A stretch of DNA of 64,000 bases from Naegleria gruberi (GCA_000004985.1 GG738848.1); one strand, 5' to 3'; shown: positions 38,336 through 41,016, numbered from the stretch's first letter. Program-made: numbers and translations. Notes: generated from the sequence alone by a model not told the origin.

Positions 38336-39064
38336 ATGTCTTCATCACGTTTGAGAAGGATCAAAAACGATCTTACAGAGGTACAACAAAATGCTTCTCT
38401 TCCTCCTTTATTAACATTTACACAGACTGAAAATTCTAGTATCATTCTCTTTAGTTTTAACTTGGACGAAACATCAAGTCTTTATGCAGGTGCCAATTTT
38501 CAGATTGAAGTTTCATTCCCAGAAAATTATCCCCACAAACCTCCTTCTTTCACATTCAAACACACCGTTCCATATCATTTCCTTGTTGATCAAATTAATG
38601 GAAAGGTAATTGGCCTCTCAAAACTTTCGACATGGTCAATGCTATTCACTTTACAATCAATATTTTCTGATCTCTACTCAAAATTTGTAAATGAACCAAG
38701 TCAAGAAGATGCTGAACAATGTGGTGTTAATGAGGATATGATTACAGAATATAGAAACACTCCACAAATCTACAGAGAAAAAGCAAGAAACTCTGTCAGA
38801 AAGTTGCAATTAACTGTAATTGAAAATCCTCTTGATTCAAATGAAATGAAGGATGAAGAATCTACTGAATCGAATGAAACGATTCATGAAGTAGTAGTTG
38901 ATGAAAATAACTTGCAGCCAAGTAATCCAATTTTGGAACAACCACTTGATTCAAGATTTGTTAATTCCAGTAATCACCACAAAATTGTTTCTCATGAAGA
39001 TGAATGGAATTATGAATACGGCTTGTATCATTTAAATATGAGATATGGAAATTACAATCAATAA
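38336..39064 (+). CDS. UBC-fold E2 variant (UEV) lacking catalytic Cys, 242 aa
   Basis: The E2 N-terminal helix is SRLRRIKNDLTEV, followed by FPENYPHKPPSFTFKHTVPYHFLVDQINGKVIGLSKLSTWS. The HPN-x-G-x-I-C-L core is present, but the Cys position is not conserved. The only Cys in the protein lies in the C-terminal tail. Confidence 0.65.
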   Translation: MSSSRLRRIKNDLTEVQQNASLPPLLTFTQTENSSIILFSFNLDETSSLYAGANFQIEVSFPENYPHKPPSFTFKHTVPYHFLVDQINGKVIGLSKLSTWSMLFTLQSIFSDLYSKFVNEPSQEDAEQCGVNEDMITEYRNTPQIYREKARNSVRKLQLTVIENPLDSNEMKDEESTESNETIHEVVVDENNLQPSNPILEQPLDSRFVNSSNHHKIVSHEDEWNYEYGLYHLNMRYGNYNQ

Positions 39065-39114
39065 ATATTTTATTCAGAATATATTGTACATTTGTTTTTG
39101 TAACAGATTATTGC

Positions 39115-39945
39115 TTATTGAAATAACAATCTATTTTCAATTTCGTGCAAATCCTCTTTGGTTTGTGTTGGAGCTACAGGCAATGAACACTTGACATATG
39201 CACCATGAGTTGTTCCAGTTGCTTCTGTACCACTACACTTGAACGGCCATTTACCAGTATTTGTATTGTAAAGAGACAAACAAGCATGACAAAAAACAGC
39301 ATTACATCTTGGACAGTGAGTATGCTTGCACCTGTCTAACTTTCCATCAGATGATGCTTGTCTTTCACAATAATTTCCACAATTAACACATAATCTTGCC
39401 AAAGGAACAACTATTTCTTGATTGGATAGATTAATCTTGGCAGTTACAGAGGATCTAGTTGTCAAGGCAGTGATCAAGGGATCTTCATTAGAACATCCAT
39501 TTCCACAAATTCCTTCACCATTCTTCCATTGATTGCCACAAATGAAACAAAAGTCAAATTTGCAAACATCACAACTCAATCTAACATCGCTGGTGTTTCT
39601 TCTAATGAAGTGATTCTTACACTTATTACAAGTAGTTGCTCTCTTGATCTTGTAATGAATATCATTCAATGCTGAATCAAACTCTTCAATTTTATCATAA
39701 TCGATATTGGCTTGATTGACCCAATTCATTGAAATGGTTTCGCCACAATTAGTTTCATCACTTCCAGTTACATTCTTATTGGAACCATAACAAACCATTG
39801 CTGTTCCTTTCGACAAGTTTTGTAAATTTTCAACAAGACAGTCTTGACAAATATAATGTTGACATTTAAGTTTCAATAATTGTTGAGTGCCAAGACAATA
39901 GAAGCATTTAGACATTTTTTTGACTTGAGAGTTCCCAAATGTCAC
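39115..39945 (-). CDS. RING-between-RING (RBR) E3 ubiquitin ligase, 276 aa
   Basis: RING1 reads CFYCLGTQQLLKLKCQHYICQDC...C..C. The IBR reads CNKCKNHFIRR...CDVCKFDFCFICGNQW. The Rcat reads CVNCGNYCERQASSDGKLDRCKHTHCPRCNAVFCHAC, which matches HHARI [20 protein letters not shown], with the catalytic Cys in DRCKH. Confidence 0.75.
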   Translation of the reverse strand: MTFGNSQVKKMSKCFYCLGTQQLLKLKCQHYICQDCLVENLQNLSKGTAMVCYGSNKNVTGSDETNCGETISMNWVNQANIDYDKIEEFDSALNDIHYKIKRATTCNKCKNHFIRRNTSDVRLSCDVCKFDFCFICGNQWKNGEGICGNGCSNEDPLITALTTRSSVTAKINLSNQEIVVPLARLCVNCGNYCERQASSDGKLDRCKHTHCPRCNAVFCHACLSLYNTNTGKWPFKCSGTEATGTTHGAYVKCSLPVAPTQTKEDLHEIENRLLFQ

Positions 39946-39977
39946 TAGTCAAGCTGCACTTCAAACAGCTTTTTCGA

Positions 39978-39984
39978 AACGTGA
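39978..39984 (+). promoter_or_regulatory. AACGTGA motif copy 2, in the shared RBR/UBL upstream region
   Basis: The sequence is cgaAACGTGAtg. Confidence 0.5.
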
Positions 39985-40001
39985 TGAAACTTATACACTC
40001 A

Positions 40002-40008
40002 AACGTGA
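40002..40008 (+). promoter_or_regulatory. AACGTGA motif copy 3
   Basis: The sequence is caAACGTGAta, about 80 bp upstream of the UBL ATG. Confidence 0.5.
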
Positions 40009-40086
40009 TACACCCCAAAACGCAACACAAGAATTCAATAAATAGATTTTAAATCACAGAATATTAATATCTCAATTCATAAAAAA

Positions 40087-40356
40087 ATGTCCACTCCATT
40101 AAACGTTTCCATTCAACAAGGTGTCCATACTAAAGTACTCTCAATCAGTCAAACTGCAACAGTGAAAGACCTTGCAACCATGTACAAATCCCAAACTGAA
40201 CTTAAAGAATTCTACTTTTTGCATAGAACCACCAGACTTGAAGAAACTACTATTGTTTCTCATATTATTAAACATCCAAACCAAAAGTTAGTAGTTGTTG
40301 GAATTGCTAAAGGTGGTTCTGAAGAAGGAAGAGCATCAATCTTGTCTCTTATTTAA
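40087..40356 (+). CDS. small ubiquitin-like (beta-grasp) protein with internal Gly-Gly followed by a 12-aa C-terminal tail, 89 aa
   Basis: The sequence MSTPLNVSIQQGVHTKVLSISQTATVKDLATMYK...KLVVVGIAKGG|SEEGRASILSLI has the length and hydrophobic periodicity of a ubiquitin fold. It loosely resembles the UFM1 core (KVLSVPESTPF compared with KVLSISQTATV). GG at positions 76-77 followed by a short extension is the arrangement seen in processed UBL precursors. Confidence 0.5.
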   Translation: MSTPLNVSIQQGVHTKVLSISQTATVKDLATMYKSQTELKEFYFLHRTTRLEETTIVSHIIKHPNQKLVVVGIAKGGSEEGRASILSLI

Positions 40357-40513
40357 ACCTAGTTGAGTTTCGTCAAGATATTGAAATAAACTCTCTTTTT
40401 TCAATTAAATCGAAATATTAATCATTTCTGCTGCTTATGAAATCAAGCCGTGTGATCAAACGAGAATCTAATTTTGGTGCCACTGGTGCAAATGATTAAG
40501 TTAGGAAGTCTGA

Positions 40514-40520
40514 AACGTGA
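40514..40520 (+). promoter_or_regulatory. AACGTGA motif copy 4, 17 bp upstream of the UEV2 ATG
   Basis: The sequence is tgaAACGTGAaa. Confidence 0.5.
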
Positions 40521-40536
40521 AAAAAACAATTAAAAA

Positions 40537-41016
40537 ATGTCAAAACAAAGAAGAATTCTGAATGAAGTTGCTGAAGCCAACAAGAACAATCATCCAAAGA
40601 TCAAATTTGAAATTTCCCAAGAGAATTTACATGGTTGGAATTGTTCATTTAAAGGTCCAGATAACACTCCCTATCAAGATTTGCAATTTGAAGGAACTCT
40701 CTGTCTTCCGTAAGTTTAGTTTGGATTAGTTTTGCTAATATTTTGCTTGGTTAGAAATGATTTTCCTTCATCAAGACCAACCTTTGTATTCTCTTCCAAA
40801 ACAATTCCATACCACATCAATGTAGACGATAGTGGTGTAGCTTCTGTCTCTTTGCAATGGACTCCCACACTCACAGGAATAGTTTTTGTCGAAAGTGTAA
40901 TTAACATGTTAGAAACTCCACAACCAACTTGTTCTGTTAGTGATGAAAGATTCAAATTATATCAAAGTAACAAAGATCAATATCAAAAACAAGCCAGCAA
41001 ATTCCTCCAAGAATAA
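40537..41016 (+). CDS. Mms2/Uev1-like E2 variant (UEV) lacking catalytic Cys, 2 exons, 144 aa
   Basis: Exons are 40537..40709 and 40755..41016, with a 45-nt intron GTAAGT...GGTTAG that is phase 2 and keeps frame. The sequence is RRILNEVAEANKNN...WNCSFKGPDNTPYQDLQFEGTLCLPNDFPSSRPTFVFSSKTIPYHINVDDSGVASVSLQWTP. The UBC fold is present with Ala at the active-site Cys position. It resembles Mms2 KINMNGINNSSGMVDARSI. Confidence 0.65.

What the first reader, a model, noticed from the sequence alone, without database searches (positions are those of the whole stretch)
38336..41016. Both E2-fold genes in the cluster lack the active-site cysteine (two UEVs and no canonical E2)
UEV1 (242 aa) has ...HTVPYHFLVDQINGKVIGLSKLSTW and UEV2 (144 aa) has ...KTIPYHINVDDSGVASVSLQWTP. 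Each shows the UBC HPN-G-x-I-C-L core with the catalytic Cys substituted (Ile/Gly and Ala respectively). UEV2 resembles Mms2/Uev1, which normally partners Ubc13. There are two possible readings. The module may rely on an E2 encoded elsewhere. Alternatively the RBR ligase, which forms its own thioester, may be loaded unusually, with the UEVs acting as adaptors.
Basis: partly seen in the sequence, partly recalled or inferred. Interest (0 to 1): 0.55.

Follow-up and report, generated by a model that had tools for sequence, protein, structure and literature searches.

The report
Cys-less E2 pair in Naegleria Ubl module
In the amoeba Naegleria gruberi, six adjacent genes with a shared promoter motif encode a private ubiquitin-like tagging system whose only two E2-type proteins lack the usual catalytic cysteine but each has a cysteine in the loop across the active-site cleft, so the system either works in an unusual way or borrows an E2 from elsewhere.

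Summary
The window is Naegleria gruberi. It contains exactly two E2-fold (UBC) genes, and neither has a cysteine at the canonical catalytic position. UEV1 (38336-39064, 242 aa) has Ile92 there.

They sit in a compact six-gene module:
- a UBA1-type E1 with its catalytic Cys458;
- UEV1;
- an RBR-like ligase with an Rcat-type Cys196-x-His;
- an unannotated 77-aa Ubl ending in GG plus a cleavable tail;
- UEV2;
- a USP protease.

Every gene has an AACGTGA element within about 110 nt upstream of its ATG. Seven of the window's ten copies lie in 2.8 kb.

The module has no detectable orthologue outside N. gruberi and one close strain.

Neither protein is Mms2/Uev1-like. Both keep the full UBC core, and UEV2 keeps His and Asn of the HPN motif.

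UEV1's only cysteine (Cys129) and UEV2's Cys117 lie in the loop facing the lost cysteine. Cys117 sits exactly at the UbcH5 Asp117 / Rad6 Ser120 site.

My best reading (about 0.35) is that they are still the module's Ubl carriers, using a relocated nucleophile. Non-catalytic cofactors of an unlinked E2 are nearly as likely. Nothing here is biochemically tested.

The parts
35652..38256 (-). E1 activating enzyme, 826 aa. Exons 38256-38044, 37999-37889, 37849-37454 and 37412-35652. UBA1-type, with GAGAIGCE and NLNRQF adenylation motifs and catalytic Cys458 (RTSC458TLKSNP). No FCCH, 4HB or UFD detected by Pfam.
   Evidence: Searches give the splice model. One search aligns it to yeast Uba1 at E=2.7e-47, with Cys458 opposite the Uba1 catalytic Cys. 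One search shows Cys458 invariant in 26 E1s. One search finds only Pfam ThiF and UBA_E1_SCCH. One search identifies it as N. gruberi 'ubiquitin activating enzyme E1' (D2V1X8); the next best hits are about 27% identical.
38274..38351 (.). Divergent E1/UEV1 promoter region with two AACGTGA elements: 38274-38280 on + (62 nt upstream of the UEV1 ATG) and 38345-38351 on - (about 90 nt upstream of the E1 ATG).
   Evidence: Both elements, and the whole 79-nt intergenic region, are identical in the related strain.
38336..39064 (+). UEV1, 242 aa (NAEGRDRAFT_62733). Complete UBC core (residues 1-160) plus an acidic tail. The HPN motif reads H81-F-L. The canonical Cys position is Ile92. Asp125 is at the CES/D site, followed by a 4-residue insertion that holds the protein's only cysteine, Cys129.
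   Evidence: Ile92 and Cys129 are both kept in the strain variant P0002.
39115..39915 (-). RBR-like E3, 266 aa (NAEGRDRAFT_78190). RING1 uses C4, C7, C18, H20, C23, C26, C42 and C57. The IBR uses C96 to C141. The Rcat-like finger has C196-x-H198 followed by x2-C-x2-C-x4-C-x2-C.
   Evidence: IBR_1 at E=1.1e-5, below the gathering score; weak ARIH2 matches at E=0.02; ligand pattern; dN/dS 0.32 against the related strain, with all Cys and His kept.
39978..40008 (+). Two AACGTGA elements (39978-39984 and 40002-40008) in the divergent RBR/Ubl intergenic region.
   Evidence: the AACGTG core is kept in the related strain although this intergenic region is 14% divergent.
40087..40356 (+). Ubl precursor, 89 aa. 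The mature part is 77 aa and ends ...VVGIAKGG, followed by a 12-aa tail, SEEGRASILSLI. It is not annotated in the reference proteome.
   Evidence: ORF; not in the protein collection; the strain variant keeps AKGG but has a different, shorter tail; only a weak UBX-like hit at E about 0.002; no PDB sequence match. The assignment as a Ubl is inferred.
40514..40520 (+). AACGTGA element 23 nt upstream of the UEV2 ATG.
40537..40709 (+). UEV2 exon 1 (residues 1-58, E2 helix 1 to the start of the (Y/F)PxxxP motif).
   Evidence: E2 HMM positions 2-57.
40755..41016 (+). UEV2 exon 2 (residues 58-144). H78-I-N80 is kept. Ser88 is at the canonical Cys position, followed by a 3-residue deletion, then Trp93. 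Cys117 is exactly at the CES/D (UbcH5 Asp117) position. C-terminal helices 3 and 4 are present.
41016..41044 (+). Two AACGTGA elements (41016-41022 and 41038-41044) between the UEV2 stop codon and the USP ATG.
   Evidence: They support two separate transcription units, against the fused reference model.
41062..42414 (+). USP-family protease, 421 aa. Exons 41062-41274, 41316-41348 and 41395-42414. It has the Cys box NVGNTCYLNS, the QNDSSEF motif and the His box KYGHYVSAV..YNDS. It is the likely Ubl-processing and deconjugating enzyme.
   Evidence: splice model. Pfam UCH at E=4e-15, profile positions 1-235 of 254.

Best explanation
UEV1 and UEV2 are the E2-position components of a lineage-specific, co-regulated ubiquitin-like conjugation module of Naegleria gruberi. 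The module consists of a Ubl precursor, a USP, an E1, two E2-fold proteins and an RBR-like E3.

Proposed pathway:
1. The USP trims the tail after Gly-Gly of the Ubl.
2. The E1 adenylates the Ubl and takes it onto Cys458.
3. The Ubl passes to one or both E2-fold proteins.
4. From there it passes to Cys196 of the RBR-like ligase, and then to targets.

Both E2-fold proteins have lost the canonical cysteine (Ile92 and Ser88). I propose that the thioester is formed instead on a cysteine in the opposite wall of the same cleft. In UEV2 this is Cys117, exactly at the UbcH5 Asp117 / Rad6 Ser120 'CES/D' site. In UEV1 it is Cys129, in a 4-residue insertion right after that site.

A Cys-to-Cys-to-Cys relay to an RBR does not need the HPN Asn or the CES/D acid, which serve aminolysis. 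That would make such a shift tolerable.

Shown:
- the gene content of the module and the shared promoter motif;
- loss of the canonical Cys in both E2-fold proteins;
- intact catalytic motifs in the E1 and the USP;
- the position of the loop cysteines in sequence alignments.

Inferred: every transfer step, the Ubl identity, the catalytic role of RBR Cys196, and the use of Cys117 and Cys129 as nucleophiles.
For: Module and co-regulation:
- Six adjacent genes with E1, E2-fold, RBR/IBR, GG-ended Ubl and USP signatures.
- Seven of the window's ten AACGTGA sites fall in 2.8 kb, one or two within about 110 nt upstream of each ATG. The chance of this clustering is about 3e-8.
- The motifs are kept in a related strain whose intergenic DNA is 14% divergent.

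The E1 is active-looking but only about 27% identical to any UBA1, and has no orthologue. A private E2 partner is the natural expectation. The only E2-fold genes in 64 kb are these two.

Loop cysteines:
- UEV1 has a single Cys in 242 residues, and it lies in the CES/D loop.
- UEV2 Cys117 aligns without gaps to UbcH5 Asp117 and Rad6 Ser120.
- BLASTP of the two paralogues (24% identity, E=8e-8) aligns Cys117 with Cys129.
- The CES/D residue and the catalytic Cys both contact the same substrate lysine, at about 0.5 nm or less each (PMC4604453). They therefore face each other across the cleft.

Other features:
- UEV2 retains His78, Asn80, Trp93 and the full UBC core. UEV1 also retains the full core.
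- Among 157 E2 domains from the 150 best UEV2 hits, Cys at the CES/D column occurs in 0 of 122 domains with the canonical Cys and in 4 of 35 without it.
Against: - No precedent is known to me for a relocated catalytic cysteine in the E2 fold. Characterised Cys-less E2-fold proteins are non-catalytic.
- There are no orthologues, so conservation of Cys117 and Cys129 cannot be tested.
- Automated alignments place UEV1 Asp125, not Cys129, at the CES/D column, with Cys129 four residues later inside an insertion.
- The chance of the Cys placement is only roughly 0.03-0.07 by my estimate, and the hypothesis was formed after seeing the data.
- The 4/35 enrichment is inflated, because the hits were ranked by similarity to a query that has Cys there. 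All four are singletons.
- In the E2s that share UEV2's 'TPQP..[AS]V' loop (P0036, P0123, P0126), this position is Tyr, Phe or His, so it may simply be variable.
- UEV1 has lost the HPN Asn. UEV2 has a 3-residue deletion next to the active site.
- UEV1 shows 8.5 non-synonymous against 1.5 synonymous changes between strains (dN/dS about 1.4, few sites).
- No 3D model could be obtained. AF2 on the single sequence gave pLDDT 34.
Confidence: 0.35

Rival explanations
1. Both proteins are true pseudo-E2s acting as non-catalytic cofactors. An active E2 encoded elsewhere in the N. gruberi genome is charged by this E1 (or by UBA1) and hands the Ubl to the RBR. UEV1 and UEV2 bind that E2, the Ubl or the substrate, and set specificity. 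This is analogous in principle to Mms2 with Ubc13.
For: - The canonical Cys is absent in both.
- All characterised Cys-less E2-fold proteins are non-catalytic (established knowledge).
- According to PMC4604453, the CES/D site is not conserved in inactive E2-fold proteins, so a Cys there can be neutral.
- UEV1 lacks the HPN Asn and shows no sign of purifying selection between strains.
- As a free-living eukaryote, N. gruberi must encode many canonical E2s (established knowledge; not searchable here).
Against: - There is no sequence affinity to the Mms2/Uev1 family.
- Both keep the complete UBC core, including helices 3 and 4.
- The E1 is only about 27% identical to UBA1 and has no recognisable UFD, so use of housekeeping E2s is not the obvious expectation.
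- Every other activity of the pathway is encoded in the module and co-regulated, yet this reading leaves out the one indispensable carrier.
Confidence: 0.3
2. The pathway is E2-independent. The Cys-less E2-fold proteins act as bridging adaptors that dock on the E1 (as an E2 would) and on RING1 of the RBR. This brings E1 Cys458~Ubl next to RBR Cys196 for direct E1-to-E3 transthiolation.
For: - The E1 and the RBR-like protein both keep candidate catalytic cysteines.
- Both E2-fold proteins keep a basic helix 1 and the (Y/F)PxxxP loop, which E2s use to bind E1 and RING domains.
- No canonical E2 lies in the module.
Against: - I know of no precedent for direct E1-to-RBR transfer.
- It would require a geometry never observed.
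- The RBR assignment is itself below Pfam thresholds.
- It does not explain why both proteins keep a cysteine at the cleft.
Confidence: 0.1
3. The module is partly decayed, or the E2-fold proteins are regulators or decoys. The Cys-less proteins are relics or inhibitors that bind the E1 or the RBR without passing on the Ubl, in a fast-evolving, possibly conflict-related, lineage-specific system.
For: - The module is restricted to N. gruberi.
- UEV1 dN/dS is about 1.4, and the Ubl has 8 changes in 77 residues between close strains.
- The active-site region is remodelled in both proteins.
Against: - All six ORFs are intact, with correct splice sites.
- The catalytic motifs of the E1 and the USP are intact.
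- RBR dN/dS is 0.32.
- Coding DNA is 1.4-5.4% divergent between strains, against 14% for the RBR-Ubl intergenic DNA, with the promoter motifs conserved.
- The UEV1 ORF has the same length in both strains.
Confidence: 0.15
4. UEV2 uses Ser88 as the nucleophile and forms an oxyester with the Ubl. Engineered E2 Cys-to-Ser mutants do this when charged by E1.
For: - Ser occupies exactly the canonical Cys position, with the HPN His and Asn retained.
- Ser is the commonest natural replacement among Cys-less E2 domains in the hit set, at 14 of 35.
- E1 is known to load C-to-S E2 mutants (established knowledge).
Against: - Oxyesters are stable and discharge poorly to a downstream Cys or Lys (established knowledge).
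- UEV1 has Ile at this position, so this reading cannot explain both proteins.
- Ser is one base from Cys, so it is the expected neutral replacement. The count of Ser is also inflated by the Ser in the query.
Confidence: 0.05
5. Artefact. The missing cysteines result from a sequencing error, strain-specific mutation or wrong exon model.
For: - UEV2's Ser88 codon TCT is one base from TGT, and no second strain covers UEV2.
- The reference annotation of this gene is wrong in another respect: NAEGRDRAFT_62735 fuses it to the USP.
Against: - UEV1 is an intron-less ORF with Ile92 (ATT, two changes from Cys) in two independent assemblies.
- The spliced UEV2 matches the whole UQ_con profile with the active-site region inside one exon.
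Confidence: 0.03

Closest known systems
Ubiquitin E2 variants Mms2 / Uev1A (UBE2V2 / UBE2V1), partners of Ubc13
   Same: They have the UBC fold without the catalytic cysteine.
   Different: From established knowledge, Mms2/Uev1 lack the HPN motif and the two C-terminal helices, and they work with a dedicated active E2. The Naegleria proteins keep the complete UBC core, and UEV2 keeps His and Asn of HPN. They have no detectable sequence affinity to UBE2V2, their best matches are active E2s, and they sit in a module with no active E2.
ISG15 system (UBA7, UBE2L6, HERC5, USP18) and other dedicated Ubl cascades such as FAT10 with UBA6/USE1
   Same: A private E1, an E2-position protein, a thioester-type E3, a USP and a Ubl made as a precursor with a cleavable C-terminal tail are all co-regulated (here through a shared AACGTGA element). 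The system evolves fast and is lineage-restricted. UEV1's solved relatives include UBE2L3 and UBE2L6.
   Different: The ISG15 and FAT10 E2s have the canonical cysteine, and their genes are dispersed. Here the genes form one 6.8-kb cluster, the E1 is a compact 826-aa protein without detectable FCCH or UFD, and both E2-fold proteins lack the canonical Cys.
UBE2L3 (UbcH7)-type transthiolation-only E2s that serve RBR and HECT ligases
   Same: The partner ligase is RBR-like. The acidic CES/D residue is absent or replaced: UbcH7 has His at that site, and UEV2's loop ETPQPTCSV resembles UbcH7's NDPQPEHPL. Only Cys-to-Cys transfer would be required.
   Different: UbcH7 has the canonical Cys86 and a full HPN motif. 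UEV2's best matches are UBE2A and UBE2D rather than UBE2L3.
Bacterial E1-E2-Ubl-protease operons (Bil and related antiviral ubiquitination-like systems)
   Same: All components of a Ubl cascade are physically clustered.
   Different: Those are prokaryotic operons with bacterial-type E1 and E2 and JAB proteases. Here the genes are eukaryotic in type (UBA1-like E1, UBC core, IBR fingers, USP), have spliceosomal introns and separate promoters, and match the GC content of their surroundings.
Engineered E2 Cys-to-Ser mutants (oxyester-forming)
   Same: UEV2 has Ser exactly at the catalytic position within an otherwise E2-like H-x-N...G-x-x-S context.
   Different: Those are laboratory tools that trap the conjugate. 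No natural Ser-E2 is known to me, and UEV1 has Ile, not Ser.

Membership tests
UBC / E2 fold superfamily (Pfam UQ_con, PF00179) | Significant full-length match to the UBC core profile | tested here: met
   UEV1 scores 62.5 bits and spliced UEV2 80.3 bits, against a gathering score of 27. They cover profile positions 3-138 and 1-138 of 140.
UBC / E2 fold superfamily (Pfam UQ_con, PF00179) | Invariant Trp after the active-site loop and the (Y/F)PxxxP motif | tested here: met
   Trp93 and Trp100, and FPSSRP and YPHKPP, align with the invariant columns.
Catalytically active E2 conjugating enzymes | Cysteine at the canonical position (HPN-x6/7-G-x-[IV]-C) | tested here: not met
   Ser88 in UEV2 and Ile92 in UEV1. 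In the hit set, 122 of 157 comparison domains have Cys at this position.
Catalytically active E2 conjugating enzymes | HPN motif | tested here: inconclusive
   UEV2 has H78-I-N80, so His and Asn are kept. UEV1 has H81-F-L, so only His is kept.
Catalytically active E2 conjugating enzymes | Forms a thioester with the Ubl when charged by the cognate E1 | not testable with these tools
   This needs biochemistry. The candidate nucleophiles are Cys117, Cys129 and Ser88.
Mms2 / Uev1 (UBE2V) family of E2 variants | Closer in sequence to UBE2V proteins than to active E2s | tested here: not met
   No BLASTP alignment to human UBE2V2 at E<=100. UBE2V2 has the lowest identity in the MAFFT panel, at 17%. 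The top solved hits are UBE2A, UBE2D, UBE2H and UBE2L3.
Mms2 / Uev1 (UBE2V) family of E2 variants | Loss of HPN and of the C-terminal helices 3 and 4 of the UBC core | tested here: not met
   Both proteins align through to the end of the UBC profile. In the MAFFT panel UBE2V2 stops before this region.
Mms2 / Uev1 (UBE2V) family of E2 variants | Absence of the catalytic cysteine | tested here: met
RBR (RING1-IBR-Rcat) E3 ligases (the neighbouring gene invoked in the finding) | Three consecutive zinc fingers, the third with a catalytic Cys in a C-x-H-x2-C-x2-C-x4-C-x2-C pattern | tested here: inconclusive
   The ligand pattern fits, and Cys196-x-His198 is in the right place. However, Pfam IBR and IBR_1 are below the gathering score (25.6 against 27 bits), and the PDB matches to ARIH2 are weak (E=0.02).
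UBA1-type E1 activating enzymes (the neighbouring gene) | Active adenylation domain motifs and a catalytic Cys in the SCCH domain | tested here: met
   GAGAIGCE, NLNRQF, DN.DAR and Cys458 are invariant in an alignment with 25 UBA1-like proteins. Cys458 aligns with the yeast Uba1 catalytic Cys.
UBA1-type E1 activating enzymes (the neighbouring gene) | FCCH, 4HB and C-terminal ubiquitin-fold (UFD) domains | tested here: not met
   None is detected by Pfam, whereas nearly all UBA1 hits have them. The AF2 model has low confidence in these regions (pLDDT 60 overall), so a degenerate UFD cannot be excluded.

The most novel reading that the evidence does not exclude
These are the first natural E2-fold enzymes in which the thioester-forming cysteine has migrated across the catalytic cleft, from the canonical loop to the CES/D loop (UEV2 Cys117, UEV1 Cys129). 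They serve a previously unrecognised, clustered and co-regulated ubiquitin-like modifier system that is private to Naegleria gruberi. Many sequences now dismissed as 'Cys-less pseudo-E2s' might then deserve re-examination, for example the 4 of 35 in the hit set that also have Cys at this site.
Probability: 0.3. Interest if true: 0.8.

Novelty: new variant of a known kind. Interest (0 to 1): 0.6.

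Why it matters
E2 enzymes are defined by one cysteine at one position, and E2-fold proteins without it are routinely written off as inactive. This module encodes everything needed for a private ubiquitin-like pathway: a modifier precursor, a processing protease, an E1 and a thioester-type E3. It lacks a conventional E2, but it encodes two E2-fold proteins that each carry a cysteine on the other side of the cleft.

Each possible outcome is informative:
- The catalytic residue has moved. 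This would be new for the fold and would change how pseudo-E2s are called.
- The E1 loads the RBR without an E2. This would be a new pathway logic.
- A dedicated Ubl system depends on two pseudo-E2 cofactors and a borrowed E2.

The components are small, soluble-looking and few, so the question can be settled by a simple in vitro reconstitution.

The module is also an undescribed, fast-evolving Ubl system in a free-living relative of the pathogen N. fowleri. The shared promoter element suggests inducible control.

Tried and rejected
- **Orthologue searches.**
  - The word-index search with UEV2 found nothing.
  - The word-index search with UEV1 found only itself.
  - Exhaustive phmmer of UEV2 against 1.84 billion representatives found only the reference gene model, then generic E2s at 1e-17 or worse.
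  - The E1 search found only itself, then UBA1s at about 27% identity.
  - Conservation of the loop cysteines therefore could not be tested.
- **Giant-virus or viral origin.** The E1 has no relative in IMG/VR. The genes have spliceosomal introns and the GC content of their flanks. Rejected.
- **Metagenome scan with UEV1.** It returned two giant-virus-like contigs with ordinary Cys-containing E2s that share only the FPENYPHKPP motif. Irrelevant.
- **AlphaFold2 of UEV2 from the single sequence.** It failed, with pLDDT 34. No usable alignment could be submitted, because no E2 homologue was returned by the permitted search. The tool also returns no coordinates, so the Cys117-to-Ser88 distance could not be measured.
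- **AF2 of the E1 with 25 homologues.** It gave pLDDT 60 and was uninformative about a UFD.
- **Look-up of exon ORFs.** I tried this to find the second strain's UEV2, E1 and USP. None is on record.
- **Literature.** Searches for the locus tags, for Naegleria E2/RBR/Ubl, and for natural Ser-E2s or relocated E2 cysteines returned nothing relevant.
- **Mms2-like identity of UEV2.** Rejected.
- **The fused reference model NAEGRDRAFT_62735 (UEV2 residues 1-118 joined to USP exon 2).** Rejected. It deletes E2 helices 3 and 4 and the USP Cys box, and it ignores an in-frame stop and two promoter elements between the genes.

Full report
**Identity of the sequence**

The window is AT-rich, about 32% GC, and has short GTAAGT...AG introns. 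Exact look-up identifies it as Naegleria gruberi. The 242-aa ORF at 38336-39064 is NAEGRDRAFT_62733 (D2V1X9). The 266-aa zinc-finger protein on the opposite strand is NAEGRDRAFT_78190 (D2V1Y0).

**Check of the observation**

UEV1:
- It is a single ORF.
- It matches Pfam UQ_con at 62.5 bits over profile positions 3-138 of 140.

UEV2:
- It needs one 45-nt intron. The exons are 40537-40709 and 40755-41016.
- The spliced 144-aa protein matches UQ_con at 80.3 bits over positions 1-138 of 140.
- A local E2 HMM hits the two exons as profile positions 2-57 and 59-146. The model is therefore secure, and the active-site region is not interrupted.

Catalytic position. The evidence comes from MAFFT with eight human E2/UEV sequences, hmmalign of 157 E2 domains and simple motif spacing.
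- In UEV2, His78 to Gly85 has the canonical spacing of 7. G85-V-A-S88 corresponds to G82-S-I-C85 of UBE2D2. Three residues are then deleted before Trp93.
- UEV1 is gapless against UBE2H and UBE2K from His81 to Trp100. Ile92 sits at the Cys position.
The residue is Ser88, with codon TCT, one base from TGT.

A second strain:
- A 2.7-kb ENA metagenome contig (L001) carries the Ubl, RBR and UEV1 genes and E1 exon 1.
- It has the same UEV1 ORF, with Ile92 and Cys129.

Other E2 genes: a six-frame scan of the entire window finds no other E2-fold gene.

**What surrounds the two genes**

The two genes are part of a 6.8-kb module.

- *E1 (35652-38256, minus strand, four exons, 826 aa).*
  - It aligns to yeast Uba1 at E=2.7e-47.
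  - Cys458 (RTSC458TLKSNP) lies opposite the Uba1 catalytic cysteine.
  - GAGAIGCE, NLNRQF and Cys458 are invariant in an alignment with 25 UBA1-like proteins.
  - Pfam finds only ThiF and SCCH, not FCCH, 4HB or UFD.
- *RBR-like protein (39115-39915, minus strand).*
  - It has a C3HC4 RING1 and an IBR.
  - Its third finger has the pattern C196-x-H-x2-C-x2-C-x4-C-x2-C, which matches the catalytic Rcat finger.
  - Database support is weak: IBR_1 at E=1e-5, below the gathering score, and ARIH2 at E=0.02.
- *Ubl (40087-40356).*
  - The 89-aa ORF ends ...VVGIAKGG-SEEGRASILSLI.
  - The other strain keeps AKGG but has a different tail, as expected of a cleaved propeptide.
  - It has no PDB sequence match and only a weak UBX-like Pfam hit. 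Its Ubl nature is inferred.
  - It is not in the reference proteome.
- *USP (41062-42414, three exons, 421 aa).* It has the Cys box, the QNDSSEF motif and the His box. Pfam UCH scores E=4e-15.
- *Reference model.* NAEGRDRAFT_62735 joins UEV2 residues 1-118 to USP exon 2. I reject it.

**Co-regulation**

- AACGTGA occurs 10 times in the window, against 3.3 expected.
- Seven copies lie between 38274 and 41044. One or two lie within about 110 nt upstream of each of the six ATGs.
- The binomial chance of this clustering is about 3e-8.
- In the related strain the RBR-Ubl intergenic region is 14% divergent, yet the motif cores are kept.
- I read this as a shared promoter element. That is an inference.

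**Distribution**

- Outside N. gruberi and that one strain, no orthologue of UEV1, UEV2 or the E1 was found in the protein collections.
- None was found in viral contigs either.
- Between the two strains, RBR dN/dS is 0.32. UEV1 has 8.5 non-synonymous against 1.5 synonymous changes. The Ubl has 8 replacements in 77 residues.
- The module is thus lineage-restricted and fast-evolving, but all its ORFs are intact.

**Are they UEVs of the Mms2 type?**

No.
- UEV2 gives no BLASTP alignment with human UBE2V2.
- Its best solved relatives are UBE2A and UBE2D, at about 1e-15.
- UEV1's best solved relatives are an unnamed ubiquitin-conjugating enzyme (5v0r), UBE2H, an E2-24 kDa enzyme (1tte) and UBE2L3.
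- Both keep the whole UBC core. UEV2 keeps His78 and Asn80 of the HPN motif.
- They are Cys-less E2-fold proteins in the generic sense only.

- UEV1 contains one cysteine in 242 residues, Cys129. UEV2 has three: Cys36, Cys56 and Cys117.
- Cys117 aligns without gaps to UBE2D2 Asp117 and UBE2A Ser120. This is the 'CES/D' residue.
- According to PMC4604453, the CES/D residue lies in the catalytic cleft. It contacts the same substrate lysine as the catalytic cysteine, at about 0.5 nm or less each.
- In UEV1, Asp125 occupies that column. Cys129 follows in a 4-residue insertion of the same loop.
- Pairwise BLASTP of the two paralogues (E=8e-8, 24% identity) aligns Cys117 with Cys129. It also shows a shared T-[IV]-P-Y-H motif.
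- In the 157 E2 domains from the 150 best UEV2 hits, Cys at the CES/D column is seen in 0 of 122 domains with the canonical Cys. It is seen in 4 of 35 without it. The four are P0035 from the plant Dioscorea, plus P0037, P0106 and P0110 from metagenomes. Fisher p=0.002.

Caveats on that enrichment:
- The hits were ranked by similarity to a query that has Cys at this site. I estimate this inflates the count about 3-fold.
- The four sequences are singletons.
- Relaxed constraint in inactive domains would also allow Cys there.
- E2s sharing UEV2's 'TPQP..[AS]V' loop have Tyr, Phe or His at this site.

**Mechanism**

The module has an active-looking but highly divergent E1 and a thioester-type E3. 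It therefore needs a carrier between them.

*Preferred reading (about 0.35).*
- UEV1 and/or UEV2 are still that carrier and use the loop cysteine.
- Transthiolation to an RBR needs neither the HPN Asn nor the CES/D acid, which serve aminolysis (established knowledge from UbcH7 and from Asn mutants).
- The loss of those residues is therefore compatible with such a role.

*Rival readings.*
- Non-catalytic cofactors of an unlinked canonical E2 (0.3).
- Adaptors for direct E1-to-RBR transfer (0.1).
- Decayed proteins or decoys (0.15).
- A Ser88 oxyester in UEV2 (0.05).
- An artefact (0.03).

None of these can be decided computationally with the data available. There are no orthologues. No structure could be produced: AF2 on the single UEV2 sequence gave pLDDT 34. 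The E1 model with 25 homologues reached only pLDDT 60 and says nothing firm about a UFD.

**Comparison with known systems, and novelty**

- In organisation, the module most resembles a dedicated, inducible Ubl cascade such as the ISG15 system. It differs in being clustered, and in having two Cys-less E2-fold proteins where the E2 should be.
- Literature searches found no description of this locus, of a natural relocated-cysteine E2 or of a natural Ser-E2.
- I rate it a new variant of a known kind.
- A short reconstitution experiment would distinguish readings that differ greatly in importance.

Noticed in passing
window 38274-41044 (sites at 38274+, 38345-, 39978+, 40002+, 40514+, 41016+, 41038+): The heptamer AACGTGA (extended consensus [A/T]AACGTGA) lies within about 110 nt upstream of all six module genes. 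It accounts for 7 of the 10 copies in the 64-kb window, and it is conserved in a related strain despite 14% intergenic divergence. It is probably a shared cis-regulatory element of an inducible regulon. The other three copies (22, 3034, 18857) look incidental. The copy at 18857 lies inside a 2216-aa ORF.
   Followed up: partly
window 40537-42414: The reference gene model NAEGRDRAFT_62735 (D2V1Y1, 299 aa) fuses UEV2 residues 1-118 to USP exon 2, and it mis-splices the USP His box. As a result both genes are mis-annotated, and the USP Cys box and E2 helices 3 and 4 are lost from the proteome.
   Followed up: yes
window 40087-40356: The Ubl precursor gene (89 aa, ...AKGG plus a 12-aa tail) is absent from the reference protein set. 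A close strain has the same GG but a shorter, different tail (LRASILSLI), plus 8 replacements in the 77-aa mature part. The modifier is therefore evolving very fast.
   Followed up: partly
L001 versus window 38044-40356: Divergence between the two strains is very uneven. It is 0% in the 79-nt E1/UEV1 intergenic region, 1.4% in UEV1 (dS 0.010), 2.9% in the RBR (dS 0.065), 5.4% in the Ubl and 14% in the RBR/Ubl intergenic region. This may reflect recombination, a recent sweep around UEV1, or strong constraint on the bidirectional promoter.
   Followed up: no
proteins P0007, P0010, P0017, P0099 (hits): A recurrent two-domain architecture appears in unnamed metagenome and ENA proteins with Asn/Lys/Ile-rich sequences. 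It has an N-terminal UbcH5-like domain with intact HPN but Ser in place of the catalytic Cys (NGSISLDIL), followed by a degenerate second E2-like domain. Ser is the commonest replacement among Cys-less domains in the hit set, at 14 of 35.
   Followed up: no
protein P0035 (Dioscorea zingiberensis KAJ0979183.1): A plant UBC8-12-like paralogue has Cys85 replaced by Ala, and PNPDDPLVPE changed to PNLECCVAPE. The canonical Cys is lost and two Cys are gained at the CES/D site, seemingly independently of Naegleria.
   Followed up: no
window 35652-38256 (E1): The E1 is unusually compact, at 826 aa against about 1000-1060 for UBA1, UBA6 and UBA7. It has a degenerate N-terminal inactive adenylation half. 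Pfam detects no FCCH, 4HB or UFD. Residues 115-233 are low-confidence in the AF2 model.
   Followed up: partly
L002 3427-3903 and L003 1306-1782: Two freshwater metagenome contigs were pulled in by the FPENYPHKPP motif. They look like giant-virus DNA (AT-rich, intron-less, densely packed). They encode a canonical Cdc34/UBE2G-like E2 flanked by thioredoxin-like genes. They are unrelated to the Naegleria module.
   Followed up: no
window 30286-32809: A divergent Ran-like small GTPase ORF (289 aa, minus strand) lies head-to-head with ORFs that I judged RCC1-like by eye, without running any search. This may be a GTPase/GEF gene pair just upstream of the module. Neither has the AACGTGA element.
   Followed up: no
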